Source: Nitrososphaerales archaeon
GTDB taxonomy: Archaea > Thermoproteota > Nitrososphaeria > Nitrososphaerales > Gagatemarchaeaceae
Reading direction: 5' to 3'
Assembly: GCA_030038365.1 (NCBI GenBank)
Contig: JASHPA010000196.1
Coordinates: forward strand, 8,900-72,899
DNA length: 64,000 nucleotides
The notes below the pieces were generated by a model. The model was not told the origin of the DNA. It searched no databases and was given only the letters and a program-made list of their open reading frames with translations. Below are positions 6,738 through 60,739 of the stretch, piece after piece; positions within the stretch are counted from its first letter, which is position 1, and every line of letters starts with the position of its first letter. A program made the translations under genes and the position numbers.

Positions 6738-6829
6738 TGGCGGGCCCGGCAGGATTTGAACCCGCGACTTCTAGCTCTCCTCCTAGAGGTTAGAAGGCTA
6801 GCGCTCTATCCGTACTGAGCTACGGGCCC
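6738..6829 (-). tRNA. tRNA-Arg(UCU) with a 14-nt intron at the canonical 37/38 position; CCA encoded
   Basis: The reverse complement folds by hand as GGGCCCG TA GCTC AGTACGGATA GAGC G CTAGC CTTCTA[ACCTCTAGGAGGAG]A GCTAG AAGTC GCGGG TTCAAAT CCTGC CGGGCCC G CCA. Confidence 0.85.
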
Positions 6830-13745: not shown

Positions 13746-14192
13746 CGGGGGCCGCGGGCCTATTCGATATGTGTCTTTGCCCGAACAACAGAGTAGAAGG
13801 GCCAGTGACGAGTTTTGATCCAAATTACCCCCAACACTTACGAGGCGTTTGAAGCCGATGCTAGAAGAGAAAGGAGTACAGAAGAATTGTAATTTTCGGC
13901 GCAGAAGGCTGGAAATATACCGTTTGATCACTCCAATTCCGCCTAGGCATCCGGTCTTGAATGCCCAGATTGGATTGGACGCGATGAGACGGACGCCTGT
14001 TCAAAGAGAACTAGACGCATGTCCAGTCGAAGCCAGACTCGTAAGTCTAAAATATGATTCTAACGTTACTTTCCACGCTCACTGCTTCCGTAACGATAGA
14101 TCGTGTCCCTGACAACCTTATTCTCCGGTCTGAATAGCTCCTCACGATTCTAGTCCGCTCTTTTCTCCCGCGTAGTATCCTAAGCGAGCCTA

Positions 14193-14804
14193 CTATCTCC
14201 ACCAGATTCCGTTGTTCTTCTGTTCCGTTGGTGCTAAACCGAATCTCTTCCTTTCGGTTTGTCTGATGTTGAACTGTCCCTTGCTCCTTTTTATGACGGA
14301 CGAAGATAATTCATCGATGAATGAGACACAAAAGCTGGGAACACCTGTCTCAAATCTTGCAACCTCTCCGAAGACTGTCGTAGGGTCTCCTTTTCTGACT
14401 CGAGACGATATCGGATCCCAAACCATAGAGAAGAATGGCCAAGCCAAATCTGTGAGAATTGGACGTGACGGGAGGACCTACATATCGGCTCGGGAACTTG
14501 GTATGTTGGTCAAGAGCTCGAAAAATGCCAACGGCATCATCGAAGTTCCAGCAAAAATCACATACTCCCATTCAAAATCACTGTGCGCAGTCCCACGGGC
14601 TCCTTCCTCACCTATCACTCCTACAAAGGAGGTGCCGAATTCAGACCGGTACTCCCAAGGAATCGTCTCGCACCAGGGTAGCGTGTTTGGATAACACTGG
14701 AGCCGCTCTCCCGTGATTCTTTCGTTTACGGTATTCAGAGCTTTGAACTCGCTAGTCAAGACTTGAAGCGCTGGGAAGCTGAAAGAGTTGTTGTGTCGAC
14801 TCAT
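14193..14804 (-). pseudogene. orphan 203-codon frame interrupted by one in-frame TAG (14478-14480)
   Basis: ORFs 14478..14804 and 14193..14447 are in the same frame and are separated only by TAG plus 10 sense codons (..SSRADM*VLPSRPILTDLAWPFF..). The sequence is Trp/Phe-rich and looks globular. The opposite-strand ORF 14212..14694 is Ser/Thr/Pro-rich and looks like an antisense shadow. Confidence 0.3.
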
Positions 14805-14890
14805 TCACAATCCTCGATGATAAGCTTGAGATTCACTTCATTCAGGATCATCCATTGGTCGCGCTTTCAAATTTTGTGCTGTCTGGCCGC

Positions 14891-15631
14891 ATGGGTGAAT
14901 CTCTAGGGGCAAGTAATCAGTACGGCGGGGTCTATCTGCCGTTCGTCATAGTCGACTACATTGGCAGGATGTGGATGATGAGAATCCGTCATGATGGCTC
15001 AAATCGGCCCCAGTTTCAAATTGACCGTGGTGCCGGGTGCGAAACCGTGAGCCTGATATCTTTCGACGGATTCAGGCTGACGTTTCGTTACGGAAGAAGC
15101 GGAGCCGTATCGACCTGTTATCTCTGTCCTCCTTCGGATGAGATGTACGATCTTGCCCCGCCCCGTGCCTACTCTGGAAAGTATCTTGCCTTGGTTCAAA
15201 ACAAGTACTCAAGAGCGTTGATAATTGATAAGGTAAAAATCAAGAGAAATCTTGAACGCCAAATGCTCGACGCCGGATCGGTGTATGATCAGGGTAGAAT
15301 TGGATCAGAAATCGCCTATCTTTGCGCTGTGAGATACCTTGGGTTGCAGAGCGTAGTGCTTGAGGAACCCTCAAAGAACGGAAAAGACCTCTATACAATG
15401 AATAAGCAGTCAGTCATACAAACAAGAATGATTAAAGCTGCACGAAGAGATCACTTCGAACTGAGCGTTCAAACAGAACTTCTCGACCTTATCAGAAAGC
15501 TGGGACAGGATTTCAGGTACAACGGTGAGATGATTCGCGGGTATGGCGCTCTCTCTTTTGTAAACCGACGCAACGATATCAAAACTATCGTTGTAGAGGT
15601 AACAAGAGACACGAGGTTGAGTAGAAGTTGA
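14891..15631 (+). CDS. hypothetical protein (orphan; possible nuclease-like C-terminal half)
   Basis: Open frame from 14855 (TTG) with the first ATG at 14891. The stop lies 1 nt from the 3' end of tRNA-Thr. No recognisable family. The C-terminal GSEIAYLCAV...SKNGKDLY...VIQTRMIK loosely resembles an E...D...(E/Q)xK layout. Confidence 0.4.
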   Translation: MGESLGASNQYGGVYLPFVIVDYIGRMWMMRIRHDGSNRPQFQIDRGAGCETVSLISFDGFRLTFRYGRSGAVSTCYLCPPSDEMYDLAPPRAYSGKYLALVQNKYSRALIIDKVKIKRNLERQMLDAGSVYDQGRIGSEIAYLCAVRYLGLQSVVLEEPSKNGKDLYTMNKQSVIQTRMIKAARRDHFELSVQTELLDLIRKLGQDFRYNGEMIRGYGALSFVNRRNDIKTIVVEVTRDTRLSRS

Positions 15632-15632
15632 G

Positions 15633-15728
15633 AGCCGGCGGAGGGTTTCTCGTACTCCAGCGGAGTTAAGTCGATCCCTCGACCTTGCGCTTACGAGGCG
15701 CACGCTCTTCCAACTGAGCTACGCCGGC
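15633..15728 (-). tRNA. tRNA-Thr(CGU) with a ~23-nt non-canonical intron inside the T-loop
   Basis: Reverse complement: GCCGGCG TA GCTC AGTTGGAA GAGC G TGCGC CTCGTAA GCGCA AGGTC GAGGG [30 nt: ATCGACTTAACTCCGCTGGAGTACGAGAAA] CCCTC CGCCGGC T. All stems pair, and the T-loop carries 23 extra nt containing an ACUCC/GGAGU hairpin. Confidence 0.78.
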
Positions 15729-15755
15729 ACAAGTCACCCGTCCGATTCCTCGTCC

Positions 15756-15763
15756 TTTTAAAA
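15756..15763 (-). promoter_or_regulatory. TATA box for tRNA-Thr
   Basis: Palindromic TTTTAAAA lies 28-35 nt upstream of the tRNA-Thr 5' end (15728). Confidence 0.5.
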
Positions 15764-15785
15764 TGTAGACGGACGCTCGGAAGAG

Positions 15786-15792
15786 TTTTAGA
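15786..15792 (+). promoter_or_regulatory. TATA box for tRNA-Leu
   Basis: TTTTAGA lies 28-34 nt upstream of the tRNA-Leu 5' end (15820). Confidence 0.45.
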
Positions 15793-15819
15793 AGCGCGTC
15801 TATGAAGCGGGAGCTTCGT

Positions 15820-15924
15820 GCGGGGGTCGCCCAGCCTGGTCAACGGCGTGGGACTGAGGTGCCGTCTGGCTCAGACCTCCCATCCCTTAGGGGTTCGTGG
15901 GTTCGAATCCCACCCCCCGCACCA
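15820..15924 (+). tRNA. tRNA-Leu(GAG), class II, with a 17-nt canonical intron; CCA encoded
   Basis: GCGGGGG TC GCC CAGCCTGGTCAAC GGC G TGGGA CTGAGG[TGCCGTCTGGCTCAGAC]C TCCCA TCCCTTAGGGGTTC GTGGG TTCGAAT CCCAC CCCCCGC A CCA. The intron CUCAG pairs with the anticodon-loop CUGAG, as expected for a bulge-helix-bulge (BHB) splice motif. Confidence 0.9.
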
Positions 15925-15931
15925 TACAAAC
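15901..15931 (+). repeat. att-like direct repeat, copy 1 (3' end of the intact tRNA-Leu plus 7 nt)
   Basis: GTTCGAATCCCACCCCCCGCACCATACAAAC is identical to 17500-17530. Weaker similarity continues ~30 nt downstream. Confidence 0.85.
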
Positions 15932-16537
15932 CAGGTCGAAACGAGGTTTCTATCGGGTTCAGCGCGGAAGCACGCGCCGTCCGATTGCGGAGAATCAGTG
16001 CATCCTAGGCAACTTCGTCAGCCCGTCCGCCGCCTTAGATGGCAAGACCACAGCAGAGGCCGCTGAAGGTCGCGATTCAGGAGAGAACAAGTAGGGCCTC
16101 CTGCTTCTCAGAAACGCTCTCGTCAACGACCCGAAACAGCGGAGGAAAAAGCAACCCGATAGCAGGAAAAGAGCCATGACACTTGTTACTAAGACTTTAC
16201 AAGGCTTATACGTTGGAATGCTCCAATAATTACCTACGTTGGACAGACATTTGCCCACATTGACGGTTGCTCTTCCAGCCATTGTCGTCATGGTCCTGCT
16301 CTGTATGAACGGTACCAATACGATTCAGCATGTAATTAGATGCCTCAGGGTATGCCAGTAATATGGGACCATCATATTATGCTGCGTTCATCACAGAGAA
16401 GCCGAACAAGTTACTGCCCGAATTTACCACGTATTCCATGACTGCATACGCCCTGTACGACGGAGGGTCGTATGAAGGTGTACAACCGCTTTGGAATAGT
16501 GGATACTAGTTGCTTTGATGAGGGGCCTTTCTGCACC

Positions 16538-17326
16538 ATGAAAATTCGACGGCAACAAGAACGACGACGAGCGATCTCGCGCCGCGCAGTGACTTTCGCC
16601 GCGATAGCCCTGGTTCTTGTTGCTGCGATAGGCGTTGCAGCGCTAAGGACCTTTTCGATGGCGAGGTCAGCCGAAATAAACTCTACATCTGCCGCCGCCA
16701 CATCCTCCAACGGCGTCGAGCTGAAAGCCTCCGTCAATTCAACGACTCTCGCGGAGGGGCAGGTGTTGAACGTCTCAATCTCTTTGTTCAATACATTATC
16801 CGCACTCAATAACGTCACAACCTCCAACGATGACTGGATGATGCATGGATTTCCAGTCGCAATGTGGCCTCCATGCACTGACAACCTGCCTGTCGAATTT
16901 GACATCCTAGCGGGAAACTACAACGATGCTCAGATTCAGGCCATGAATCCGGACTATGGCAATGCGACATCCTACACGTGTGCGGAGAGCACTTCAGTCC
17001 AGTACGTTGCTTTCCAGCCGAACAGTGACAGCGTCAACCTCACCGCGCTTGTCGGGGTCAACGATTACCTTCACAGCAGAATGGTTGGTTCGTATGACCT
17101 GGATAGCAACTTCACGGTGAGCGGTTACTGGTGGTACCCGGTCACGAGCGCCGACGAGGGAGACCTGAACACGGTCGTGCCGGGAAGTGCACCTGCTCAA
17201 TACACTTTCCAGTACCCCGAGGTGTCTCCGACGGATTCCACTCCGTTCAAGCCGGGAGCCTACACTCTGGTCGTCGGAGATGAATGGGGACAGGTTGTGC
17301 TGATACACTTTCTAGTGAAGGCGTAG
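16538..17326 (+). CDS. membrane-anchored extracellular protein rich in N-glycosylation sequons
   Basis: Likely start MKIRRQQERRRAISRRAVTFAAIALVLVAAIGVAAL, a basic N-terminus followed by a TM anchor. Seven N-x-S/T sequons follow (NST, NST, NVS, NVT, NAT, NLT, NFT). No family recognised. Confidence 0.5.
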   Translation: MKIRRQQERRRAISRRAVTFAAIALVLVAAIGVAALRTFSMARSAEINSTSAAATSSNGVELKASVNSTTLAEGQVLNVSISLFNTLSALNNVTTSNDDWMMHGFPVAMWPPCTDNLPVEFDILAGNYNDAQIQAMNPDYGNATSYTCAESTSVQYVAFQPNSDSVNLTALVGVNDYLHSRMVGSYDLDSNFTVSGYWWYPVTSADEGDLNTVVPGSAPAQYTFQYPEVSPTDSTPFKPGAYTLVVGDEWGQVVLIHFLVKA

Positions 17327-17356
17327 CGTAGACAGGTCGAAGAGCGCATGGTCATG

Positions 17357-17396
17357 AGGGAGTGTCATGTCGAGCTCCTCCGCTTTGACACTCCCT
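17357..17396. repeat. perfect 11-bp inverted repeat (hairpin) downstream of 16538..17326
   Basis: AGGGAGTGTCA (17357-17367) and TGACACTCCCT (17386-17396) are separated by 18 nt. Confidence 0.7.
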
Positions 17397-17499
17397 TGTC
17401 ACTTGGCCGCGCTATATTCCGGCTTGTTCAGGGGCAAATAGTCATCGCCGATTTGGTGGCCCTCCCCTTCAGATAGGGGAACTGAGGGAGGATAGTCAT

Positions 17500-17530
17500 G
17501 TTCGAATCCCACCCCCCGCACCATACAAAC
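17500..17530 (+). repeat. att-like direct repeat, copy 2 (partial tRNA-Leu 3' end, not a functional tRNA)
   Basis: Perfect 31-nt copy of 15901-15931. The upstream TCATG cannot form the T-stem (GTGGG is needed), and no 5' half is present. Confidence 0.85.
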
Positions 17531-17752
17531 TAGCTCAAAGCGAGGTTTGTAATTGGTTTGGAGCCTGTTTTCGGCCACACCAGCAAGAGGTCAAAGGCGG
17601 CCAAGTTCAATTGAATCTCCCGACTCTTTCAGCTCGAGGGGGCACTGGGGTTAGGGCACTCCGCTCCTATCCCTGCTTGCAGTACACTCATCGGGCCGGA
17701 GCACCTCTCTCCGTAGCAAAGCTTATGTGTATACATAGCCGTATATCCAGTT

Positions 17753-18010
17753 ATGGCCAATATCGTCAAGCTACAAAAGATTGGAAATAGCATCAGAGCA
17801 ACCATACCAAAAGAGATCGTCGATGATCTTTCTCTAAGAGAAGGGGAAGATATGATGATAGCTGAAGTTGATGATTACATTCTGCTTAGAAGGAAAAAGG
17901 GAGGCGGAGTCGGTGATGGGCCGTCACAGTTCTTCGGCAAGCTCAAAGCCAAGACCGGAGAGGTGGAACATTGGCCAAGCCCGGAAGAAATCAAGAATAT
18001 CTGGGGATAG
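17753..18010 (+). CDS. vapB: AbrB/SpoVT-fold antitoxin (VapB-like)
   Basis: 85 aa. MANIVKLQKIGNSIRATIPKEIVDDLSLREGEDMMI is the swapped-hairpin AbrB/MazE motif. It lies immediately upstream of and overlaps a PIN gene. The palindrome TGTATACA sits in its promoter region (~17726). Confidence 0.8.
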   Translation: MANIVKLQKIGNSIRATIPKEIVDDLSLREGEDMMIAEVDDYILLRRKKGGGVGDGPSQFFGKLKAKTGEVEHWPSPEEIKNIWG

Positions 18011-18402
18011 ATTCCAACGTACTAGTCGCCTACTTGGTGCCAGACCACCCCGACCATCAACTAACCAAGTCCCTCCAAGCCAAGCGGCATGCGGTTAATC
18101 CCACGGTCCTTCACGAAACATATCATACATGCGTTTTCAAACTGAAGAGGCCCCCAGAAGACACAATGAACGCTTTGATTGATTACATGGACTTCTCATC
18201 ATGCCTCTCGATGGATTCGGGCACAGTAGAGTTAGGTCTTAGGCTTGCCCTGCGGTATTCGCTGGGTGGAAGAGATGCACTCATACTCGCATCGTATTCT
18301 CGCGCTAAGCAGGTCAGGAAGTTTGTCACAATGGATAAGTCGCTACTTGCAATCGGAAAGTTGACTGTTGGAAAGAAGAAGCTAAACATAGTCTCTCCTT
18401 GA
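17971..18402 (+). CDS. vapC: PIN-domain ribonuclease toxin (VapC-like)
   Basis: Acidic PIN residues in context: IDSNVLV (D), LHETYH (E), GGRDALILA (D), FVTMDKSL (D). The start is uncertain: a TTG at 17971 overlaps vapB by 40 nt, and no ATG/GTG lies near the vapB stop. Confidence 0.78.
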   Translation: MAKPGRNQEYLGIDSNVLVAYLVPDHPDHQLTKSLQAKRHAVNPTVLHETYHTCVFKLKRPPEDTMNALIDYMDFSSCLSMDSGTVELGLRLALRYSLGGRDALILASYSRAKQVRKFVTMDKSLLAIGKLTVGKKKLNIVSP

Positions 18403-18487
18403 TTGAACACTCGATGTTAGCAGCCGACTGGTGGATTCCTGTGGAGTTCGCGAACCTGCAATCCACAGGAAGTGCATGGGTTCTCAT

Positions 18488-18507
18488 GTTCGAATCCCAC
18501 CCCTGCA
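18488..18507 (+). repeat. att-like direct repeat, copy 3 (degenerate)
   Basis: GTTCGAATCCCACCCC-TGCA is preceded by the same TCATG as copy 2. The following AGCTCAAA resembles the flank of copy 2. Confidence 0.6.
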
Positions 18508-18648
18508 CTGCGAATCAGCTCAAACATATCGCGTTTATCCGTCGAGCCGAAACTGAATCTTGGAGACGGGAAAATGACGAGCGGGTGCGAAAGTTAACCA
18601 GCATGTCGGTGAGGAGTCTGCCGGGGTAACTACTTCAGAGGGCGACCA

Positions 18649-19197
18649 ATGGTGGAAACGTTCATGCTTCCTTCGACGGGAATTGGTTTTGCCCCTGCCA
18701 TCATACTCGTAGTGATTGCCGGAGGCGCCGCGCTTCACTACTTCTTCCCCCGACAGGGTCTGCCGAAGCTGAACAAAGGTTCCGCAGTCGGGATTGTCCT
18801 CGCTCTCTTGGTAGGTGGAGGACTCGCGGCCACCTTCCTGAATCCGAGCGCCCCGACAATCGCGGTCGGTCCTGGTCAAGTTTCGATTAGCGCGCAAGTA
18901 ATCGGGACCATGAGTTTCCAGGCAACGGACATGAAACAGGCGTGTACTCAGACGGTTGGAAGCGGTCTGCTGGCTTCCATGTTCAAACAATCAGGCACGA
19001 ACTACGGGAACTACAACGTAGGCACGTACTCGCTCGACAACGGCGCTACTGCGTACGTCGTCAGTGATAATCCGAGCAATGTCGTGGTCGAGCTAGACAG
19101 CGGTTTGTATCTCGTCCTCGGGCCTCCTTCGAGTAACTTTACTGGCTTCGTCAGCTATTTTTCGGAAAATGTCTTACCCGTGACCAGCTGTTCCTGA
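18649..19197 (+). CDS. hypothetical membrane protein (two N-terminal TM helices plus a soluble domain)
   Basis: 182 aa. GIGFAPAIILVVIAGGAALHYFF and AVGIVLALLVGGGLAATFL are followed by a Gly/Ser/Asn-rich beta-looking domain. Confidence 0.45.
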   Translation: MVETFMLPSTGIGFAPAIILVVIAGGAALHYFFPRQGLPKLNKGSAVGIVLALLVGGGLAATFLNPSAPTIAVGPGQVSISAQVIGTMSFQATDMKQACTQTVGSGLLASMFKQSGTNYGNYNVGTYSLDNGATAYVVSDNPSNVVVELDSGLYLVLGPPSSNFTGFVSYFSENVLPVTSCS

Positions 19198-19241
19198 TTG
19201 GCTCCTTGATTCAAGGGTGATGTCCGAATCGATGAAGTCAC

Positions 19242-21747: not shown

Positions 21748-23391
21748 ATGTCAAGTAGCCCACAGTACATTATTCTAAAGGAAGGCACAGCAGAGTCGAA
21801 GGGAAGGGAAGCTCAGAGGAACAACATCCAGGCTGCGAAGCTCATCTCCGAGATCGTCAGAACATCTCTAGGTCCCCGCGGTATGGACAAGATGCTAGTC
21901 GACTCGCTCGGCGACGTGACCATCACCAACGACGGGGCTACCATGCTCAAGGAGATAGACGTCCAGCATCCCGCTGCGAAGATGCTGGTGGAGGTATCGA
22001 AGGCCACAGACAACGAGGTAGGCGACGGGACGACATCCGCTGTCATCCTCGCAGGCGCGTTGCTCGAGAAGGCGGAGGAGCTCATCAGTAAGGACGTTCA
22101 TCCCACAGTTGTCGTCGACGGCTACATGAAAGCGCTCGAGAAGTCGCAGCAGGTCCTCGAGAAGATTGCGGAGAAGGTCGACCCATCCTCGAAGGCAGAC
22201 CTGCTCAAGGTCGCCACAACCAGCATGATGACGAAGCTCGTCTCCGACGACGCTCCTCACCTCGCCCAGCTCGTGGTCGACGCGGTGACGCAGGTGGCCG
22301 AGCAAACGGAGACCGGCTACAAGGTCGACATCGACAATGTCAAGGTAGAGAAGAAGGCGGGAGGCTCGATGACCGATACCAAACTCATAACCGGAATAGC
22401 CCTCGACAAGGAGGTGGTCCACTCGGCGATGCCGAAGAGGATAGACGGGGCAAAGATAGCGCTCATCAACTCGCCTCTCGAGATAGAGAAGACCGAGTTC
22501 AGCGCAGAGATTAGGATAAGCGACCCCGACCAGATGCAGAAGTTCCTCGATGAGGAGAACAGCATCCTGAAGGGCATGGTCGAGAAGATCGAGGAGTCTG
22601 GCGCCAATGTGGTCATCGCCCAGAAGGGCATCGACGACGTCGCACAGCACTACCTGGCCAGGGCCGGGATCATGGCGGTCAGAAGGGTCAAAGAGAGCGA
22701 CATGACCAAGCTCGCCAAGGCTACGGGGGCGCGCATAGTCACGAACTTGGACGATCTGAGCGCCAAGGACCTCGGGTCGGCAAAACTCGCCGAGGAGAGG
22801 AAGGTCGAGGAAGACAAGTGGGTCTTCATCGAGGGCGCGAAGAATCCCAAGGCGGTCACCATTCTCGTGAGAGGAGGTTCGCAGAGGGTCGTCGACGAGG
22901 CCGAACGCTCGCTCCACGACGCGCTCATGGTCACGAAGGATGTCGTCGAGACTCCCTCGATCGTCGCCGGCGGCGGTGCGCCTGAGGTCGAGATCGCGAG
23001 CAAGGTCAGGGAATGGGCGCAGAAGCTTACAGGAAGGGAACAGCTGGCGGCTCTCAGGTTCGCCGAAGCGATAGAGAGCATCGCAACCATTCTCGCTGAG
23101 AACGCAGGCATGGACCCGATTGACACGCAGGTCGACCTGAGGGCAAGGCACAGCAAAGGCGAGAAGTGGGCCGGAGTCGACGCGCTCTCGGGCAAGGTCG
23201 CCAACATGTGGGGCAAGAACGTCATCGAGCCGATGGCCGTGAAGAGCCAGATTCTGAAGGCTGCGACCGAGTCGGCGAGCATGATTCTGCGCATCGACGA
23301 CGTCATCGCTTCGAGCAAGACAAAGGAGGTGCCAGCCGGTGCAGGAGGGCCAGGCGGAATGGGAGGAATGGGTGGCATGGGCGGGATGTAA
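21748..23391 (+). CDS. ths: thermosome subunit (group II chaperonin)
   Basis: 547 aa. [31 protein letters not shown] and VAGGGAPE motifs, with a C-terminal [12 protein letters not shown] tail. Confidence 0.97.
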
Positions 23392-23530
23392 GAAGAGGCC
23401 CGCCCGTTCACACTTTATTCTCTAAAGAATACCAATTCCGTCAAGCTTATGAAGGAGGTACCGTCGTCGCGGTGGCGGTAGTTCGTGCGGGTCGCATTTT
23501 TTGGCCTAGGCGCTGCCGTGTTGAGAACAA

Positions 23531-23947
23531 ATGACGCTGTCGATAGCAAAGCGCGTACTCGAGGAGATACACACCCACGCGGAGTCGACCTATCCGGAGG
23601 AGTGCTGCGGATTGCTGATCTCGGACAGGTCTAAACACGTGACGGAATCCATCCGTATGAAGAACGCCTATGACGGGCCGAAGCATGACCGCTACAACAT
23701 TGACCCTCTCGAACTGTTCAGGGCTGACCGGGCCAGCGCGCAGAAGGGCCTCACGATAGCTGGCATATACCACTCCCATCCAGACTATCCGGCCACGCTA
23801 TCGAAGTTCGACACCGACCATTCTTTTCCCTGGTATTCCTACGTCGTTGTCTCGGTGCCCAAGGGCCAGGCCGGAGATACCAGGGCCTGGATACCAAAGG
23901 AAGACAGGACATCGGCCATGGAGGAGACGATGGAGGTCTTTGGGTGA
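23531..23947 (+). CDS. JAMM/MPN+ metalloprotease (Mec+/HcyD/QbsD-like prokaryotic JAB)
   Basis: 138 aa. The complete JAMM signature is present: EECCG (Glu) and HSHPDYPATLSKFD, which equals HxHx7Sx2D exactly. Confidence 0.88.
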   Translation: MTLSIAKRVLEEIHTHAESTYPEECCGLLISDRSKHVTESIRMKNAYDGPKHDRYNIDPLELFRADRASAQKGLTIAGIYHSHPDYPATLSKFDTDHSFPWYSYVVVSVPKGQAGDTRAWIPKEDRTSAMEETMEVFG

Positions 23948-23951
23948 GAAG

Positions 23952-25379
23952 ATGGCCGTCAAGATAGTCATACCGACCGCTCTGCGGCAGCACACGAACA
24001 ACGAGGACGAACTCCAGCTCAGCGCGCGTGATGTGAAAGGAGCGCTGCAGGAACTGGTTGTCGCTTTCCCCGGGCTCAGACGATATCTCTATTCCGACAA
24101 TGGAAGGCTCCGCAACTTCATCAACATCTACCTCAACGAGGAGGACATCCGCTATATGAAAGGGGAGGAGACCCCTCTTTCCGACGGGGATACCCTGATG
24201 ATAGTCCCATCAGTGGCCGGAGGATCGGCCCATGCCGATCCGCACAACGTCAGTCTGTCGAGCAGCGAGTTCGCACGCTACAGCCGGCACCTGATAATGC
24301 CAGAGGTCGGGATGGAAGGCCAGAAGGCGATAAAGGCGTCGAGCGTCCTGATAATTGGCGCGGGCGGCCTAGGGACACCCTCGGCGACCTATCTCGCAGC
24401 CGCAGGGGTCGGCAGGATAGGCATCGTCGACTTTGACACGATTGAGAAGAGCAACCTCCACCGACAGATACTGTACTCGGAGCAGGACGTAGGCAAGAGC
24501 AAGGCGGAGGTTGCCAAGGAACGTTTGCTGCAGGTAAACCCGAACATCAGTATCGAGCTGCACAAGGTCCGTCTCGACTCTTCCAATGCGCTGGACCTCC
24601 TGAAGAACTACGACATCATCATGGATGGTACAGACAACTTCCCCACACGCTATCTAGTGAACGACGCATGCGTGCTCCTCGGCAAACCAAACGTTTACGC
24701 GAGCATTTTCAGGTTCGAGGGCCAGGCCTCAGTATTCTTCGCCAAGGAGGGTCCATGCTACAGGTGCCTCTATCCGGAGCCCCCCCCACCGGGCCTCGTC
24801 CCGTCGTGCGCCGAGGGCGGCGTCCTTGGTGTCCTGCCGGGGATAATGGGGAGCATCCAGGCGGCCGAGGCCATAGACCTCATACTTGGAAAGGGTACGC
24901 CCCTGATCGGGCGCCTCCTGCTCTTCAACGCCCTGGACATGAAGTTCAAGGAGCTGAAACTCAGGAAGAACCCCGACTGTCCGATATGCGGCCCGAATCC
25001 GACAGTGAAGGAGTTGATAGACTATGAAGTGTTCTGCGGGGTCAACGAGACGCTCGAGCCTGGTTTCGAGATATCGTCGCGCGCCCTCAAGCAGGTGATT
25101 GACGCGAAAGGAGGCGTCGTGCTCCTCGATGTGCGAGAGCCATTCGAGAATCAAATCTGCAGGATAGACGGCTCGAGGCTCATCCCGCTTGGGCAGCTGC
25201 CGCAGAGGGTCAACGAGCTGGACACTGCGGATGACATAGTCGTCTACTGCCACAGTGGTGTAAGGAGCGCCCAGGCGGTCCGGCTGCTGAAGGGTCTGGG
25301 TTTTCGCAAGGTCAGGAATCTAAAAGGTGGGATACGGGCCTGGACCATCGAAGTCGACCCCACTCTCCAGACGTATTGA
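23952..25379 (+). CDS. tri-domain fusion: CysO/MoaD-like ubiquitin-fold sulfur carrier (internal GG) + MoeB/ThiF-type E1 adenylyltransferase + rhodanese
   Basis: ATG at 23952, 5 nt after the JAMM stop. Residues 1-91, MAVKIVIPTALRQHT...FINIYLNEEDIRY...DGDTLMIVPSVAGG, follow the CysO pattern (IPT.LR.HT / FVNIYVNDEDVRF / DGD..I.P.VAGG). Next come ARYSRHL..IIGAGGLGTPSATYLAAAGVG (E1 nucleotide loop), the CYRC and CPIC zinc pairs, and PSCAEGGVLG. The rhodanese domain has active site VVYCHSGVRS. Confidence 0.85.
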   Translation: MAVKIVIPTALRQHTNNEDELQLSARDVKGALQELVVAFPGLRRYLYSDNGRLRNFINIYLNEEDIRYMKGEETPLSDGDTLMIVPSVAGGSAHADPHNVSLSSSEFARYSRHLIMPEVGMEGQKAIKASSVLIIGAGGLGTPSATYLAAAGVGRIGIVDFDTIEKSNLHRQILYSEQDVGKSKAEVAKERLLQVNPNISIELHKVRLDSSNALDLLKNYDIIMDGTDNFPTRYLVNDACVLLGKPNVYASIFRFEGQASVFFAKEGPCYRCLYPEPPPPGLVPSCAEGGVLGVLPGIMGSIQAAEAIDLILGKGTPLIGRLLLFNALDMKFKELKLRKNPDCPICGPNPTVKELIDYEVFCGVNETLEPGFEISSRALKQVIDAKGGVVLLDVREPFENQICRIDGSRLIPLGQLPQRVNELDTADDIVVYCHSGVRSAQAVRLLKGLGFRKVRNLKGGIRAWTIEVDPTLQTY

Positions 25380-25422
25380 TGACGGGGTGTGAACGCACCT
25401 GACAAAGTTCTCGACCGACTCC

Positions 25423-26574
25423 GTGCACGGGCACGACTACTACGACCCGGAGACGGGGGCGTTCAAGGTGCCGCTCTATCTCTCCACCATATTCGAGCAT
25501 CCGGACCGGCGGACGGGAGAAACGCGCAAGAGCGACAGGGGTTTCGAGCAGAAGTACTCGAGAGAGGAGAACCCGACCGTAAGAGGGTTCGAGAAGGTCA
25601 TCGCGAAGCTCGAGCAGGCCTCCGCCTCCCTCGCGTTCAGCAGCGGGATGGGGAGCATGGCGGCCATCTATCTTTCGACCCTGAGCTCGGGCGATAACAT
25701 CGTCGTCACCAAGGAATCCTACGGCACTACCCAGGAGCTCGCCCTCAATCTTTCCAAGTTCGGGATAAAGACGACCCTTGCAGGACCGGAAACCGAGGAT
25801 TTCATCGAGAAGATCAACCAGGGAGTCTCCCTCGTCGTGGTCGAGACCATGACCAATCCCCAGGTCCGAGTAGCCGATGTGAGGGCTATCGCGAAGCGAT
25901 GCAAGGAGGTCGGAGCGAAGCTGGTCGTAGACAATACGTTCGCCACACCGCTCCTGTACAAGCCGCTGCTCGACGGCGCCTGGGTGACCCTTCATAGCGT
26001 GACCAAGTACATAGCGGGGCACAACGATGTGATTGGCGGAGTCATCGCCCTGGATGATTCCATGGACTTGGTCGACCTGTGGGAGTTCAGACGCAGGCTC
26101 GGCTCAATCATGGGACCATTCGAGGCCTTCCTCTCGTTGAGAGGTGTAAGCACTCTGAAGGTACGGTTCGAAGCGCAGTGTGCGTCTGCACTCGCCATAG
26201 CAGAGTTTCTGCAGGACAGCCCTAAGGTCGAGGAAGTGTTCTATCCCGGGCTGAAGAGCAGCCCGTATCACAAGACGGCGCAGAAGCTCTTCGCCGAGAA
26301 ACTGTACGGTGGCCTCCTCAGTTTCAAGGTCAAGGGTGGAAAGAAGGAGGCGCTCGAGGTCCTCAAGAGGGTAAACGTCATCAAACCCTCGCCCAGCCTA
26401 GGCGGCACGGAGTCGCTCCTCAACTACCCGATCACCAGCGCTTCGAAGACGCTATCGCCCGCCGTGAAAAGGGAACTTGGCATAGGCGACAATCTACTGA
26501 GGCTCGCCCTGGGGCTCGAGGATATCGAAGACCTGAAGGAAGACCTTTCACAGGCGCTGGCAAGAGTGCCATAG
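25423..26574 (+). CDS. Cys/Met-metabolism PLP-dependent enzyme (O-acyl-homoserine sulfhydrylase / cystathionine gamma-synthase family)
   Basis: 383 aa with a GTG start; the frame is open back to 25393 and reads TKFSTDSVHG, so the true start may be non-canonical. Motifs YSREENPT, AFSSGMGSMAA and the PLP-lysine context HSVTKYIAGHNDVIGG. Confidence 0.85.
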   Translation: MHGHDYYDPETGAFKVPLYLSTIFEHPDRRTGETRKSDRGFEQKYSREENPTVRGFEKVIAKLEQASASLAFSSGMGSMAAIYLSTLSSGDNIVVTKESYGTTQELALNLSKFGIKTTLAGPETEDFIEKINQGVSLVVVETMTNPQVRVADVRAIAKRCKEVGAKLVVDNTFATPLLYKPLLDGAWVTLHSVTKYIAGHNDVIGGVIALDDSMDLVDLWEFRRRLGSIMGPFEAFLSLRGVSTLKVRFEAQCASALAIAEFLQDSPKVEEVFYPGLKSSPYHKTAQKLFAEKLYGGLLSFKVKGGKKEALEVLKRVNVIKPSPSLGGTESLLNYPITSASKTLSPAVKRELGIGDNLLRLALGLEDIEDLKEDLSQALARVP

Positions 26575-26609: not shown

Positions 26610-28286
26610 GTGTCCTGCCGACCGGCCGTGCCGACTGGCGGGGCTCTTGTGATAGAGGCGCTGGAGCGAAAACGCGTTCCGTTTGTCTTCGGTATACCTG
26701 CCGTCCACAATCTCCCAATCTACGATGCTCTCCAGTCGTCGACCAAGGTAAGAAGCGTCAGCGTGAAGCACGAGCAAGGCGCAGGATTCATGTCGATTGG
26801 CTTCGCGTATTCCACAGGGAAACCGGCCACCTGTGTCGTAGGGTGCGGTCCGGGGGCCACCAACATGTTGACTCCCGTCGGCGAAGCCTACCTGGATTCG
26901 ATGCCGCTGCTGGTGATTGCTGGTGGAATCAGGACCACCTCCGTAGGCAAGGGAGGTCTTCACGACGTCGACCAGCTATCTATGTTCGCAAGCGTCACGA
27001 AGGAGACCGCGAGACTGACTGATGCTGCAACGCTTGGACTCTGTGTTGAAGAGGCAGTCCAAAGCTCGACAAGCGGCAGACCTCGCCCTATTTTTCTCGA
27101 GATACCTTTCGACGTACTCTCGCGCGAAGTTCCGCCCGCCTCCGCGATGTCGATACCGAATCCTGTCTCACAGCCGCTCCGCGGGGAAAAGGACGCAGTC
27201 TCCCTCGCTTCAAGGGCTCTTTCGCAGGCTGTGAGGCCGCTTATCATCGTCGGAGGCGGAATAAACAGCTCTGGAGCGTGGGACGACCTCCACAGGCTTG
27301 CAAACATACTCCAATCTCCTGTGGTATCGACTATCTCGGCCAAAGGGGCATATCCCGAGAACGACCCCCTCTCGGCGGGCCAGCTCTGGGATTCCGTTGG
27401 ACTCAGGACCGCCAGCGAGGCGGATGTCGTTCTCGCCCTGGGCTGCCGCTTCTCCGAGCGTTCCACTGCGAGCTGGGGACTCAGACTCCCGGGCTCCCTG
27501 ATTCAGGTCGACATCGACCCGAACGAGATCGGAAGAAACTACCCGGTAGCACTCGGAATATGCGCCGATGCGGGGAAGTTCCTGCAGGCTCTCTTGGAGG
27601 AGAAGCCCTCTGGGAATACCCACGAAAGAGCCAAGTGGACAGAAGAGGTGCGGAACGCAAGCCTGGAGAGGAAGGCCCAGATTGCCAGGAGTGTCCCCGA
27701 GTCGGGCTCGATCAGACCGCAGAGCGCTGTCCACGAGATAGCGCAGGTGCTCCCTGGCGATGCAGTGGTCGTAACGGAAACGGGTCATGCTTTCTGGTGG
27801 CCCGTAATGATGCTGGAGATGACAAGACCGAGGAGCTTCCTCGCGCCCTCTGGCAACTCAACCCTCGGCTTCGGCTTCCCCGCCGCACTAGGGGCGAAGT
27901 GCGCCCGTCCGGAGAGGCCCGTGGTCTGTCTGGTGGGAGATGGTGGTTTCGCTTTCACCTGTCAGGAGATTGCTACTTCGGTCGAGGAAAAAATCCCCAT
28001 CGTGACTGTGGTATTCGACGACGGGGGCTACGCGGCCATACGGGAGTATCAAAGAAAGGGGTATGGTTCCCGTTACATCGGCGTCGATTTTTCGGTGAGA
28101 CCCGACTTCGTGAAACTCGCTCAATCGCTTGGCGCCGATGGTGTCCTCGTGGAGCGACGGGATGAGATTGGACCGATCGTGAAGGCCGCACTGCGAGCAT
28201 CGAAGACTACCGTGATAGACGTCGGGATAGAGCGCGACGAGGAAGTCCTTCCCAAGTTCTTCACCCAGATTTACAAGAAAGGCTAA
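26610..28286 (+). CDS. thiamine-diphosphate-dependent enzyme (acetolactate synthase large-subunit-like)
   Basis: 558 aa. N-terminal GGALVIEALERKRVPFVFGIPAVHNLPIYDAL..KHEQGAGFM and the ThDP-binding motif VGDGGFAFTCQEIATSVEEKIPIVTVVFDDGGY. Substrate specificity cannot be read from the sequence. Confidence 0.85.
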   Translation: MSCRPAVPTGGALVIEALERKRVPFVFGIPAVHNLPIYDALQSSTKVRSVSVKHEQGAGFMSIGFAYSTGKPATCVVGCGPGATNMLTPVGEAYLDSMPLLVIAGGIRTTSVGKGGLHDVDQLSMFASVTKETARLTDAATLGLCVEEAVQSSTSGRPRPIFLEIPFDVLSREVPPASAMSIPNPVSQPLRGEKDAVSLASRALSQAVRPLIIVGGGINSSGAWDDLHRLANILQSPVVSTISAKGAYPENDPLSAGQLWDSVGLRTASEADVVLALGCRFSERSTASWGLRLPGSLIQVDIDPNEIGRNYPVALGICADAGKFLQALLEEKPSGNTHERAKWTEEVRNASLERKAQIARSVPESGSIRPQSAVHEIAQVLPGDAVVVTETGHAFWWPVMMLEMTRPRSFLAPSGNSTLGFGFPAALGAKCARPERPVVCLVGDGGFAFTCQEIATSVEEKIPIVTVVFDDGGYAAIREYQRKGYGSRYIGVDFSVRPDFVKLAQSLGADGVLVERRDEIGPIVKAALRASKTTVIDVGIERDEEVLPKFFTQIYKKG

Positions 28287-31381: not shown

Positions 31382-31513
31382 TGCCAAGGGTCGGATTTGA
31401 ACCGACGACAACCCGGTAAATGAGGAGGGTCTCTCCACTTCAGCCGGGGGCTTGAGGCCTTTGGAGCTCTCTCCCAGGTTTCTCGGCTTTTTGCTCCTCT
31501 GAGCTACCTTGGC
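31382..31513 (-). tRNA. tRNA-Phe(GAA) interrupted by three introns (D-loop, position ~25/26, canonical 37/38)
   Basis: The 132-nt reverse complement reads GCCAAGG TA GCTC AG[AGGAGCAAAAAGCCGAGAAA]CCTGGGAGA GAGC [TCCAAAGGCCTCAAGC]C CCCGG CTGAAG[TGGAGAGACCCTCCTCATTT]A CCGGG TTGTC GTCGG TTCAAAT CCGAC CCTTGGC A. Removing 20+16+20 nt leaves a canonical 76-nt tRNA-Phe. Confidence 0.8.
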
Positions 31514-60441: not shown

Positions 60442-60739
60442 GTGACACGTCCCGGCAGTAGTCCTCCTTCTGTTCTAGGCGGGATTCAGCTTAGCAGCCT
60501 ACCTTGGCCTGGTGCAGGCCCGTCGACGGCCACGTTCGGCCTTGCTCTGCATGGGTCGGCCGTTTCATCCCCGCATCCATCGAACTCCGGATTTCTCCTT
60601 CACCGCATACGACGAAGGGGGTCTCGTTTCTGTTCCGTCGCCAACCGTCTCCGGTTACGCTTCTCAGCGTCATGCATCCTGCAGCGAGGGAGGAACTTCC
60701 CCAGGGTAACCCCGTGGCCCGCCCACCGGGTCGTGTCAC
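60442..60739 (-). ncRNA. rnpB: RNase P RNA (archaeal type A-like, ~298 nt)
   Basis: It lies in the ORF-free gap between mre11 and tsr3. The minus strand gives a P1 helix (5' GUGACACGACCCGG with 3' CCGGGACGUGUCAC), a CR-I-like GGGGAAGUUCCUCC and a CR-V-like AACAGAAGGAGGACUAC. These form P4 (AGU[U]CCUCC/GGAGGACU) with the conserved bulged U. Internal GGAACAGAAAC, GCGUAACCGG and GGUGAAGGAGAAAUCCGG elements are present. A TATA-like AATAAAG lies ~28 nt upstream. Confidence 0.8.

What the first reader, a model, noticed from the sequence alone, without database searches (positions are those of the whole stretch)
23531..26574. JAMM protease + CysO-like sulfur carrier fused in cis to a MoeB/ThiF E1 and rhodanese + Cys/Met-family PLP enzyme: candidate self-processing protein-thiocarboxylate module
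Three consecutive same-strand genes form a coherent set.

1. 23531..23947 is a JAMM protein with a perfect E...HxHx7Sx2D signature.
2. 23952..25379 is a single ORF. Its first 91 residues follow the M. tuberculosis CysO pattern (IPT.LR.HT, F.NIY.N.ED.R., DGD..I.P.VAGG) and end in Gly-Gly (nt 24219-24224). The ORF then runs without a stop into a complete E1 adenylation domain (GAGGLG loop, two CxxC zinc pairs) and a rhodanese with active-site Cys (YCHSGVRS).
3. 25423..26574 is a fold-type-I Cys/Met-metabolism PLP enzyme.

The separate-gene versions are established: CysO/Mec+/CysM/MoeZ in mycobacteria, HcyS/HcyD/HcyF/MetY in Wolinella, and QbsCDE. In those systems the JAMM enzyme trims the carrier to expose the GG.

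Here the carrier would need to be cut from its own activating enzyme. That makes the JAMM protease obligatory. It also raises the alternative that the GG is never freed and the Ubl acts as an intramolecular domain.
Basis: partly seen in the sequence, partly recalled or inferred. Interest (0 to 1): 0.7.

Follow-up and report, generated by a model that had tools for sequence, protein, structure and literature searches.

The report
Sulfur-carrier protein fused to its activator
This archaeal three-gene cluster encodes a small sulfur-carrier protein made as one chain with the enzyme that activates it, next to a protease that most likely cuts it free and an amino-acid-building enzyme; the arrangement is real but common in soil archaea and bacteria and has already been catalogued, so it is a well-supported but fairly ordinary find.

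Summary
Window 23531-23947 is an intact JAMM/MPN+ protease. 23952-25379 is one ORF joining a CysO-like ubiquitin-fold carrier that ends in Gly-Gly, a short disordered linker, a MoeB/MoeZ-type E1 and a rhodanese. 25423-26574 is a Cys/Met-family PLP enzyme.

The fusion is not an artefact and not rare. More than 120 Nitrososphaerales protein clusters share it. So do about 60 of 80 sampled species from Acidobacteriota, Gemmatimonadota, Bacteroidota, Chloroflexota and Thermoplasmata. The Gly-Gly is kept in nearly all of them, the linker varies from 10 to 45 residues, and a JAMM gene sits directly upstream in 70 of 78 loci.

Related split genes keep the same gene order. They usually carry extra residues after Gly-Gly, and in 14 of 16 cases their stop codon is in frame with the E1 gene.

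The most likely mechanism is that the JAMM enzyme cuts after Gly-Gly, the E1-rhodanese converts the freed carrier to a thiocarboxylate, and the PLP enzyme uses it to make homocysteine. The partner enzyme is CysM (cysteine) in most bacterial versions.

Comparative-genomics papers from 2006, 2010 and 2024 already list Ubl-E1 fusions and predict JAMM release. No biochemistry was found. I rate it a new member of a known kind, of modest interest.

The parts
23531..23947 (+). JAMM/MPN+ zinc metalloprotease (138 aa). Predicted to release the carrier and to hydrolyse carrier-amino-acid adducts.
   Evidence: Pfam Prok-JAB 3.6e-22. The HxHx7SxxD motif is at 81-94 and E23/E24 are present. The best solved relative is 2kcq (4e-19). 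A homologue lies directly upstream of the Ubl in 70 of 78 related loci.
23952..25379 (+). Single 475-aa ORF: Ubl carrier, linker, E1 adenylyltransferase and rhodanese.
   Evidence: ORF list. Pfam ThiS + ThiF + Rhodanese. The same architecture is found in 120 of 120 best database clusters at 68-91% identity.
23952..24224 (+). CysO-like beta-grasp sulfur-carrier domain (residues 1-91).
   Evidence: PDB 4n6e_B (4e-16) and 3dwg_C CysO (6e-16), aligned over the full length to the terminal GG. In the AF2 model residues 1-87 have pLDDT 77-92 and beta-grasp-like secondary structure.
24219..24224 (+). Gly90-Gly91 codons: predicted JAMM cleavage site and future thiocarboxylate terminus.
   Evidence: The sequence reads GGA GGA. 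G90 is invariant and G91 at least 90% conserved in 68 archaeal homologues. GG is kept in 61 of 62 fused and 16 of 16 split bacterial/archaeal loci.
24225..24254 (+). Linker (residues 92-101), predicted to be disordered.
   Evidence: pLDDT is below 50 for residues 88-98. Length and sequence vary among homologues. The distance from GG to the RYxRH motif is 10-45 residues in other lineages. A Ubl-less orthologue starts aligning at residue 102.
24255..25046 (+). MoeB/MoeZ/ThiF-type E1 adenylation domain. It carries GAGGLG, R109, R171, K184, D228, two CxxC pairs and C286.
   Evidence: Pfam ThiF 1.6e-86. NCBIfam MoeB/MoeZ models. PDB Uba4, MoeB and ThiF. Foldseek TM up to 0.83 to MoeB/ThiF. The listed residues are invariant in the 68-sequence alignment.
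25086..25346 (+). Rhodanese domain with active-site Cys433 (CHSGVRS).
   Evidence: Pfam Rhodanese 6.5e-19. C433 is invariant. pLDDT is 84-90.
25423..26574 (+). Cys/Met-metabolism PLP enzyme of the PRK08574 family. Predicted to be a thiocarboxylate-dependent homocysteine synthase. The true start may be CTG 25399.
   Evidence: Pfam 5.8e-107. PRK08574 scores 522 bits against a 477 cut-off. The SVTK lysine motif is at 192. The same gene follows the fusion in L081, L083 and L084. Start-codon issue.

Best explanation
This is a protein-thiocarboxylate sulfur-delivery operon of the CysO/HcyS type, in which the carrier is translated as the N-terminal 91 residues of its own activating enzyme.

Proposed steps:
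1. The JAMM protease cuts the peptide bond after Gly91. This frees a CysO-like carrier ending in Gly-Gly and a MoeZ-like E1-rhodanese. (Inferred.)
2. The E1 domain adenylates the carrier's terminal glycine.
3. The rhodanese Cys433 persulfide converts the acyl-adenylate to a thiocarboxylate. (Inferred from the family's established chemistry.)
4. The adjacent Cys/Met-family PLP enzyme uses the thiocarboxylate as sulfur nucleophile on an activated homoserine, giving a carrier-homocysteine adduct.
5. The same JAMM enzyme hydrolyses the adduct, releasing homocysteine and recycling the carrier. (Inferred by analogy. This is the least certain step.)

The fusion itself is best read as an extreme case of the C-terminal extension that carriers of this family normally carry. 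It arises and is lost by simple changes at a stop codon.
For: Domain identities and intact catalytic residues:
- All domains and their catalytic residues are present.
- The carrier is closest to CysO-type carriers, not MoaD (6e-16 against 1e-3 to 0.6).

The junction behaves like a cleavage site:
- Gly-Gly is essentially invariant in fused homologues.
- The linker is disordered and hypervariable.

The JAMM gene is tightly linked:
- A JAMM gene lies directly upstream in 70 of 78 loci.
- Its motif is intact in 73 of 74.

Fused and split forms are interchangeable:
- Split relatives keep the order JAMM-Ubl-E1.
- 15 of 16 carry 1-27 residues after GG.
- 14 of 16 have the Ubl stop codon in frame with the E1 gene.
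- At least 11 fused/split changes are needed on a neighbour-joining tree.
- An orthologous E1 (73% identity) starts exactly at residue 102 with no Ubl. The Ubl plus linker is therefore a separable unit.

Partner enzymes:
- The gene next to the module is a CysM-like PALP enzyme in 60 of 72 loci and a Cys/Met PLP enzyme in 5.
- In the window's own clade the PRK08574 enzyme follows the fusion in the window, L081, L083 and L084.
- At least 15 contig lengths up to 90 kb appear in both the fusion and the PLP hit lists, which points to the two genes lying on the same contigs.

Precedent:
- HvJAMM1 cuts a SAMP1-MoaE linear fusion exactly after the terminal Gly, and the fusion is inactive without it (PMC4443979).
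- JAMM release of fused ThiS/MoaD was predicted in PMC1779556.
- Thiocarboxylate routes to homocysteine exist in Wolinella (cited in PMC5764234) and Streptomyces.
Against: - Nothing here is biochemical. Cleavage, thiocarboxylate formation and the PLP reaction are all inferred.
- The PLP enzyme does not reach any sulfhydrylase equivalog cut-off (TIGR01326 scores 279 against 495). Its closest solved relatives are cystathionine gamma-lyases and methionine gamma-lyases at roughly 35-40% identity. It could therefore be an ordinary transsulfuration enzyme.
- More distant PRK08574 orthologues (L087/L088) have no JAMM or E1 nearby.
- NCBIfam MoeB models PRK08762 and PRK05690 are passed, so a role in molybdenum-cofactor synthesis is not excluded.
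- No homoserine-activating gene was found in the annotated part of the window.
Confidence: 0.6

Rival explanations
1. The PLP enzyme is not coupled to the carrier. The JAMM/Ubl-E1-rhodanese pair is a general sulfur-carrier system, feeding a CysM elsewhere, molybdopterin synthase, or tRNA thiolation. The neighbouring gene is an ordinary cystathionine gamma-synthase, beta-lyase or gamma-lyase that clusters with it only as part of sulfur amino-acid metabolism.
For: - The PLP enzyme's best solved relatives are lyases.
- No sulfhydrylase equivalog cut-off is reached.
- In L085/L086 two unrelated genes separate the E1 from the PLP gene, and in L087/L088 there is no linkage.
- The E1 passes two NCBIfam MoeB models.
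- Mycobacterial MoeZR serves both CysO and MoaD (PMC3227635).
Against: - A PLP enzyme of one of two sulfhydrylase-capable families sits next to the module in at least 65 of 72 loci.
- Different Cys/Met PLP subfamilies were recruited independently in Pyrinomonadaceae/Chloracidobacterium and in Nitrososphaerales.
- No MoaE, MoaA or MoaC was found within about 10 kb.
Confidence: 0.2
2. After release, the Ubl acts mainly as a SAMP-like protein modifier, conjugated to lysines by the E1, with the JAMM enzyme acting as the deconjugase. This would be a minimal archaeal ubiquitin-like tagging system.
For: - The best NCBIfam hits are SAMP1 for the Ubl (53.7 bits), UbaA among the E1 hits (341 bits) and desampylase for the JAMM (63.8 bits).
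- The module always follows the thermosome gene in this clade.
- Ubl genes next to HSP60 were noted in Sulfolobales (PMC2948915).
Against: - All three scores fall below the curated cut-offs (60, 450 and 130).
- The carrier is much closer to CysO than to SAMP1 (6e-16 against 1e-3).
- The rhodanese domain and the PLP or CysM neighbours point to sulfur chemistry.
Confidence: 0.12
3. The Gly-Gly is never exposed. The N-terminal Ubl is a permanent intramolecular domain (docking, regulation or dimer stabilisation), and the E1 activates a different, free carrier.
For: - Permanent Ubl-like domains fused to ThiF exist, for example in Campylobacter (PMC1779556).
- No experiment here shows cleavage.
Against: - GG is kept in 61 of 62 fused forms and in the archaeal set.
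- The linker is disordered and hypervariable.
- Fused and split forms interconvert repeatedly, and split Ubls also need trimming.
- An active JAMM gene is adjacent in about 90% of loci.
- No second Ubl was found in the window.
Confidence: 0.06
4. The fusion is an assembly or sequencing artefact (a missed stop codon or frameshift), or the cluster is an anti-phage Ubl/E1/JAB defence system.
For: - A few database entries are frameshifted or truncated versions of the fused protein.
- PADLOC E1-E2 and JAB models give weak hits.
Against: - More than 120 independent clusters from NCBI, ENA, JGI and Logan share the uninterrupted ORF.
- About 60 species loci share it as well.
- PADLOC hits reach at most 63 bits on the Rossmann core only, against 290-510 bits for ThiF, MoeB and MoeZ models. 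There is no E2 domain.
Confidence: 0.01

Closest known systems
M. tuberculosis CysO / MoeZ(R) / Mec+ / CysM cysteine pathway
   Same: - CysO-type beta-grasp carrier (E 6e-16 to 3dwg_C).
- E1 with a C-terminal rhodanese (NCBIfam MoeZ model, 485 bits).
- JAMM protease.
- Most fused relatives sit next to a CysM-like gene in the order CysM-JAMM-Ubl-E1.
   Different: - Here the carrier is covalently fused to the E1, so a cut is needed before first use.
- In the window the PLP partner is a fold-type-I Cys/Met enzyme, not CysM.
- The MoeZ equivalog cut-off (647 bits) is not reached.
Wolinella succinogenes HcyS / HcyF / HcyD / MetY homocysteine pathway (Krishnamoorthy & Begley 2011; cited in PMC5764234; details from my own knowledge)
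   Same: - The carrier is made with residues after Gly-Gly that a JAMM enzyme must remove.
- A Cys_Met_Meta_PP-family enzyme is the sulfur acceptor.
- The JAMM enzyme is also expected to release the amino acid from the carrier.
   Different: - The extension here is the whole 384-residue E1-rhodanese rather than one residue.
- The PLP enzyme belongs to the PRK08574 (CGS-like, 383-390 aa) subfamily, not to MetY-type O-acetylhomoserine sulfhydrylases.
Streptomyces MetO / Mec / MoeZ / MetM thiocarboxylate route to homocysteine (as summarised in bioRxiv 10.1101/2024.10.14.618325)
   Same: Carrier, Mec-type JAMM maturation and a MoeZ-type E1 together supply thiocarboxylate sulfur for homocysteine.
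   Different: - MetM is a threonine-synthase homologue using O-phosphohomoserine, whereas here the enzyme is a Cys/Met-family one.
- The carrier is a separate gene there.
Ubl-MoaE linear fusions cut by JAMM proteases (HvJAMM1 with SAMP1-MoaE, PMC4443979; Deinococcus DR0402/DRJAMM, PMC8832034, and reference 122)
   Same: - An N-terminal Ubl ending in Gly-Gly is joined by a peptide bond to a pathway partner.
- The fusion is inactive until a JAMM enzyme cuts exactly after the terminal Gly.
   Different: - The partner there is MoaE, the sulfur acceptor enzyme of molybdopterin synthase. Here it is the activating E1.
- No cleavage data exist for Ubl-E1 fusions.
Catalogued Ubl-E1 fusions: 'Ubl-E1-TBP in Thaumarchaeota' (PMC2948915); MoaD-MoeB and MoaD-MoeBR fusion clusters 356.1-356.3 (PMC11237513)
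   Same: Same domain order, same archaeal phylum, and the same observation of close bacterial (Acidobacteria) relatives.
   Different: - Those papers treat the fusion as a molybdenum-cofactor item or as a passing note.
- They do not link it to the JAMM gene or to the PLP or CysM partner.
- They give no mechanism.

Membership tests
CysO/HcyS-type protein-thiocarboxylate amino-acid biosynthesis module | ThiS/MoaD-fold carrier with a conserved C-terminal Gly-Gly | tested here: met
   Pfam ThiS 2.1e-10. CysO structures match at 4-6e-16 over the full length. GG is conserved.
CysO/HcyS-type protein-thiocarboxylate amino-acid biosynthesis module | Carrier has, or acquires, a free terminal glycine carboxylate | not testable with these tools
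   The GG is internal in the ORF. Release by the JAMM enzyme is inferred.
CysO/HcyS-type protein-thiocarboxylate amino-acid biosynthesis module | E1-like adenylyltransferase with a rhodanese domain and its active-site cysteine | tested here: met
   ThiF 1.6e-86 and Rhodanese 6.5e-19. GAGGLG, D228, CxxC x2 and C433 are invariant.
CysO/HcyS-type protein-thiocarboxylate amino-acid biosynthesis module | Adjacent JAMM/MPN+ protease with an intact zinc site | tested here: met
   Prok-JAB 3.6e-22. Motif at 81-94. Adjacent in 70 of 78 related loci.
CysO/HcyS-type protein-thiocarboxylate amino-acid biosynthesis module | Adjacent PLP enzyme that accepts the thiocarboxylate (CysM- or MetY-type sulfhydrylase) | tested here: inconclusive
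   A Cys_Met_Meta_PP enzyme is adjacent and conserved in the clade. It belongs to PRK08574, not to a characterised sulfhydrylase equivalog. Its substrate is unknown.
Molybdopterin synthase activation (MoaD/MoeB) | E1 reaches MoeB model cut-offs | tested here: inconclusive
   PRK08762 (459 bits against 449) and subfamily PRK05690 (295 against 266) are passed. TIGR02355 moeB (232 against 377) and PRK07411 (510 against 633) are not.
Molybdopterin synthase activation (MoaD/MoeB) | Carrier is a MoaD, and MoaE or other Moco genes are linked | tested here: not met
   moaD_arch scores 39 bits against a 49.5 cut-off. MoaD structures match at 1e-4 to 0.6, against CysO at 6e-16. There are no Moco genes at 19.8-31.2 kb, and the neighbours in 72 loci are CysM or Cys/Met PLP enzymes.
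Archaeal SAMP / UbaA / HvJAMM1 conjugation system | Members reach the SAMP1, UbaA and desampylase equivalog cut-offs | tested here: not met
   SAMP1 53.7 against 60. UbaA 341 against 450. Desampylase 63.8 against 130.
JAMM-processed Ubl linear fusions | N-terminal Ubl with GG at the junction to a pathway partner, plus a JAMM gene | tested here: met
   The cleavage itself was not tested.
Anti-phage Ubl/E1/E2/JAB systems (Bil, CBASS Cap2/Cap3 type) | E1 fused or linked to an E2, and strong match to defence models | tested here: not met
   PADLOC hits reach at most 63 bits, on the Rossmann core only. There is no E2. JAB hits have E about 4e-4.

The most novel reading that the evidence does not exclude
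The fusion is not a neutral gene merger but a zymogen-like control point. As long as the carrier is tethered, neither it nor perhaps the E1 active site is usable, so JAMM cleavage, possibly responsive to redox state or sulfur supply, gates sulfur flow into methionine synthesis in Nitrososphaerales. In addition, or instead, the released carrier doubles as a protein modifier, which would make this a two-gene ubiquitin-like system. Both readings would be new biochemistry for a Ubl-E1 pair.
Probability: 0.12. Interest if true: 0.55.

Novelty: new member of a known kind. Interest (0 to 1): 0.3.

Why it matters
If confirmed, the module would do three things.

- It would give Nitrososphaerales (soil Thaumarchaeota) a defined route from a protein thiocarboxylate to homocysteine. 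That pathway is poorly covered by annotation tools.
- It would provide the first tested case of a ubiquitin-like carrier synthesised as one chain with its own E1.
- It would offer a natural parallel to ubiquitin precursors that deubiquitinases must cut, and a convenient one-polypeptide substrate for studying JAMM specificity and E1-Ubl recognition.

In practice, these genes are annotated as 'MoeB' and 'cystathionine gamma-synthase family protein' in public records, which probably misstates their role.

The gain is incremental. The parts, the chemistry and the fusion itself are already known from comparative genomics.

Tried and rejected
- Sequencing artefact: rejected.
- Anti-phage defence reading: rejected by PADLOC.
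- Second Ubl or E1 in the window: a profile search of all ORFs of at least 40 codons found only the fusion. One E = 0.008 hit at 15410-15718(-) overlaps a tRNA and was dismissed.
- Stand-alone archaeal carriers: the Ubl-only database search scored only 34 candidates. Its high-identity short hits proved to be truncated or frameshifted pieces of fused proteins. Only hits at 43-54% identity are true stand-alone carriers, and these also carry 1-7 residues after GG.
- Whole-model Foldseek search: it confirmed the E1 fold but, as expected, said nothing about how the Ubl docks. The AF2 model has only moderate confidence (mean pLDDT 72.7, pTM 0.51), so inter-domain geometry was not interpreted.
- Downstream TPP enzyme (26610-28286): considered as a fourth operon member and rejected. 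It follows the PLP gene only in the window and in the closest relative L084, not in L081 or L083.
- Literature: the Wolinella paper (PMC3089676) is not held in the library, so its details are given from my own knowledge.
- Promoter and terminator scan: not run, because the tool models bacterial sigma-70 promoters only.

Full report
WHAT IS THERE

Three same-strand genes lie 4 and 43 nt apart.

Gene 1 (23531-23947) is a 138-aa Prok-JAB protein (Pfam 3.6e-22). It has the complete JAMM site: E23/E24 and H81-x-H83-x7-S91-x2-D94. Its closest solved relative is the bacterial MPN protein 2kcq (4e-19).

Gene 2 (23952-25379) is one uninterrupted 475-codon ORF.
- Residues 7-91 match Pfam ThiS, 110-344 match ThiF and 379-465 match Rhodanese.
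- The first 91 residues align end to end with two CysO-type carriers of known structure, 4n6e_B (4e-16) and M. tuberculosis CysO 3dwg_C (6e-16). MoaD and SAMP1 structures score only 1e-4 to 0.6.
- G90-G91 are encoded at 24219-24224.
- The E1 part carries the nucleotide loop GAGGLG, the conserved Arg/Lys/Asp residues, two CxxC pairs and C286. The rhodanese has its CHSGVRS cysteine. All of these are invariant in 68 homologues.
- An AlphaFold2 model (mean pLDDT 72.7) gives a confident beta-grasp-like N-domain (pLDDT 77-92) and a confident rhodanese. The E1 core matches MoeB/ThiF/Uba4 (Foldseek TM up to 0.83). pLDDT falls below 50 exactly at residues 88-98, the GG-linker junction.

Gene 3 (25423-26574) is a Cys/Met-metabolism PLP enzyme (5.8e-107). 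It passes the NCBIfam PRK08574 'cystathionine gamma-synthase family' cut-off and has the SVTK lysine.

THE FUSION IS REAL AND COMMON

The 120 best database clusters (68-91% identity) all have the same three Pfam domains in one protein of about 475-480 residues. They come from NCBI, ENA, JGI and Logan assemblies, and those that carry a name are Thaumarchaeota or Nitrososphaerales.

A scan of one genome per species returned 80 loci in which the tblastn match usually spans query residues 1-475 at 52-66% identity. They come from Acidobacteriota, Gemmatimonadota, Bacteroidota, Chloroflexota, Verrucomicrobiota, Armatimonadota, Eisenbacteria, Thermoplasmata and Nitrososphaerales. By my ORF analysis about 62 are fused and 16 are split.

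In an exhaustive search of 50%-identity representatives, about a dozen of the best 150 clusters are full-length fusions. The rest are ordinary MoeZ-like E1-rhodanese proteins that match from residue about 100 onward.

A missed stop codon or frameshift is therefore excluded. A few short 'stand-alone' hits are simply broken copies of the fused protein.

WHAT THE COMPARISONS SAY ABOUT MECHANISM

1. The Gly-Gly is invariant or nearly so in the archaeal set. It is present in 61 of 62 fused and 16 of 16 split loci.

2. The segment between GG and the first E1 helix (RYxRH) ranges from 10 to 45 residues and is low-complexity, rich in Ala, Pro, Ser and Thr. This agrees with the disordered prediction.

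3. A JAMM gene lies on the same strand, ending within 400 nt upstream of the Ubl, in 70 of 78 loci. Two of the exceptions are at contig ends. 73 of 74 of these genes keep the catalytic motif.

4. Split relatives keep the order JAMM-Ubl-E1.
- 15 of 16 split carriers still have 1-27 residues after GG. True stand-alone carriers at 43-54% identity also have 1-7 extra residues. The family therefore normally needs C-terminal trimming.
- In 14 of 16 split pairs the carrier's stop codon is in the same reading frame as the E1 gene, where one third would be expected by chance.
- A neighbour-joining tree of the E1-rhodanese part needs at least 11 fused/split changes, with 'fused' at the root (a rough tree).
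- Fusion and fission thus happen readily by point changes, which argues that the two states are functionally equivalent.

5. In a Nitrososphaerota MAG (L085/L086) the JAMM gene is followed directly by an E1-rhodanese that is 73% identical to the window protein. It aligns from residue 102 to the end and has no Ubl segment. Residues 1-101 are therefore a separable module.

An E1 can adenylate only a free carboxylate (established chemistry of MoeB, ThiF and MoeZ). These data therefore make release of the carrier after Gly91 the most likely event, and the adjacent JAMM enzyme the most likely agent. The direct precedent is HvJAMM1. It cuts a SAMP1-MoaE linear fusion exactly after the terminal Gly, and that fusion is inactive in a jamm1 deletion strain (PMC4443979).

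WHAT THE MODULE IS FOR

The gene just upstream of the JAMM gene is a PALP enzyme in 60 of 72 loci and a Cys_Met_Meta_PP enzyme in 5. The two PALP examples scored against NCBIfam are CysM-like: the cysKM subfamily model is passed by one and missed narrowly by the other. Most fused relatives are therefore the classical CysM-Mec-CysO-MoeZ cysteine operon with carrier and E1 merged, for example L082.

In the window's own clade the partner is instead the PRK08574 enzyme, placed downstream. The order thermosome - JAMM - fusion - PLP is found in the window, L081, L083 and L084. Many contig lengths recur between the fusion and PLP hit lists.

The bacterial Cys/Met enzymes linked to the module belong to other subfamilies, resembling O-succinylhomoserine sulfhydrylase or methionine gamma-lyase. 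Gamma-family enzymes were therefore recruited more than once.

By analogy with HcyS/MetY in Wolinella (cited) and MetO/MetM in Streptomyces, I propose thiocarboxylate-dependent homocysteine synthesis, with the JAMM enzyme also releasing the product.

This last step is the weakest.
- The enzyme's nearest solved relatives are lyases.
- It reaches no sulfhydrylase cut-off.
- Linkage loosens in L085/L086 and is absent in L087/L088.

ALTERNATIVES

- A permanent, uncleaved Ubl domain is disfavoured by points 1-5 above.
- A molybdenum-cofactor role is the public annotation, and two MoeB models are passed. It is not supported by the carrier's affinities or by any neighbour. The freed E1 could still serve other carriers, as MoeZR does in mycobacteria (PMC3227635).
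- A SAMP-like conjugation role cannot be excluded, but all three equivalog cut-offs are missed.
- An anti-phage Ubl system is excluded.

COMPARISON WITH WHAT IS KNOWN, AND NOVELTY

- Iyer et al. 2006 described operons of ThiS/MoaD + JAB + E1-rhodanese, with or without cysteine synthase or O-acetylhomoserine sulfhydrylase. They suggested that JAB frees ThiS/MoaD from fusions (PMC1779556).
- Makarova & Koonin 2010 listed 'Ubl-E1-TBP in Thaumarchaeota' as a fusion shared with bacteria (PMC2948915).
- A 2024 survey counted MoaD-MoeB fusions in 61 of 98 Thaumarchaeota assemblies, plus MoaD-MoeB-rhodanese fusions with Acidobacteria-like sequences. It treated them as cofactor genes (PMC11237513).
- Targeted searches found no paper testing a Ubl-E1 fusion biochemically.

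The window therefore holds a new member of a catalogued architecture within a known kind of pathway. What this analysis adds is:
- the tight JAMM linkage;
- the CysM versus Cys/Met-PLP partner pattern;
- the in-frame fusion/fission signature;
- the reassignment from 'MoeB' to a CysO/HcyS-type role.

VERDICT

- Observation: confirmed.
- Interpretation: partly supported. The parts and the chemistry are right, and cleavage is likely. The fusion is neither unusual nor unreported, and the JAMM gene is present whether or not the genes are fused.
- Interest: 0.3.

Noticed in passing
window 25384-25425: The PLP gene's homology to its orthologues runs 8 codons upstream of the first canonical start (GTG 25423). 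Orthologues L084 and L083 have ATG exactly where the window has CTG (25399-25401). An SD-like GGGGTG lies 9 nt upstream of that CTG. Orthologues are 388-390 aa, against 383 aa from the GTG start. Either CTG is used as the start codon or the N-terminus is shortened.
   Followed up: partly
window 21748-23391; L081, L083, L084, L085/L086: A thermosome (Cpn60/TCP-1) gene lies immediately upstream of the JAMM gene in every Nitrososphaerota locus examined. This includes the lineage that lacks the Ubl segment, where the thermosome is 84% identical. It may be plain synteny, or a hint of a link between this Ubl system and the chaperonin.
   Followed up: partly
L085 and L086, 2450-4035: In a Nitrososphaerota MAG (GCA_029785755.1) the JAMM gene is followed directly by an E1-rhodanese 73% identical to the window protein from residue 102 on. 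There is no Ubl-coding segment. The PLP orthologue lies 2 kb further on, after a hypothetical gene and a TFIIB gene. Where its carrier is encoded is unknown.
   Followed up: partly
L009-L076 (16 split loci), e.g. L036 5280-5582, L075 2201-2488, L047 5791-6351: In bacterial relatives with separate carrier genes, the residues after Gly-Gly are often cysteine-rich (CCPCGCCCCPR, SSCCR, C...VGCCPPACGR, SAFACGAGRDLCCN). In 14 of 16 cases the stop codon is in frame with the downstream E1 gene. The function of the Cys-rich tails is unexplained.
   Followed up: partly
window about 14000-19200: This stretch has lower G+C (48-53%, against 56-60% on either side). It holds two divergent tRNA hits (15657-15727 on the - strand, 15820-15921 on the + strand), several ORFs with no Pfam match, and a MazE/AbrB-like antitoxin plus PIN-domain toxin pair (17753-18010, 17971-18402). 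It looks like an integrated element or genomic island next to tRNA genes.
   Followed up: partly
window 6738-6829 (-), 15820-15921 (+), 31382-31513 (-): The Rfam tRNA matches are 89-132 nt long, so they are probably intron-containing archaeal tRNAs. ARAGORN reports only one of them and calls it tRNA-Pyl (anticodon cta), most likely a misreading caused by an intron.
   Followed up: no
window 60447-60734 (-): A full-length archaeal RNase P RNA (Rfam RF00373, 199 bits).
   Followed up: no
window 26610-28286 (+): An acetolactate-synthase-like TPP enzyme, below all equivalog cut-offs, follows the PLP gene by 35 nt. It does so only in the window and in the closest relative L084, not in L081 or L083. 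It is therefore probably not part of the module.
   Followed up: yes
window 23492-23531: A T-run (ATTTTTT, 23496-23502) lies about 30 nt upstream of the JAMM start codon. The two internal genes are preceded by SD-like GGGTGA or GGGGTG. This fits an archaeal operon with a leaderless first gene, but the T-run could equally be the thermosome gene's terminator. This is read by eye from the sequence and was not tested.
   Followed up: no
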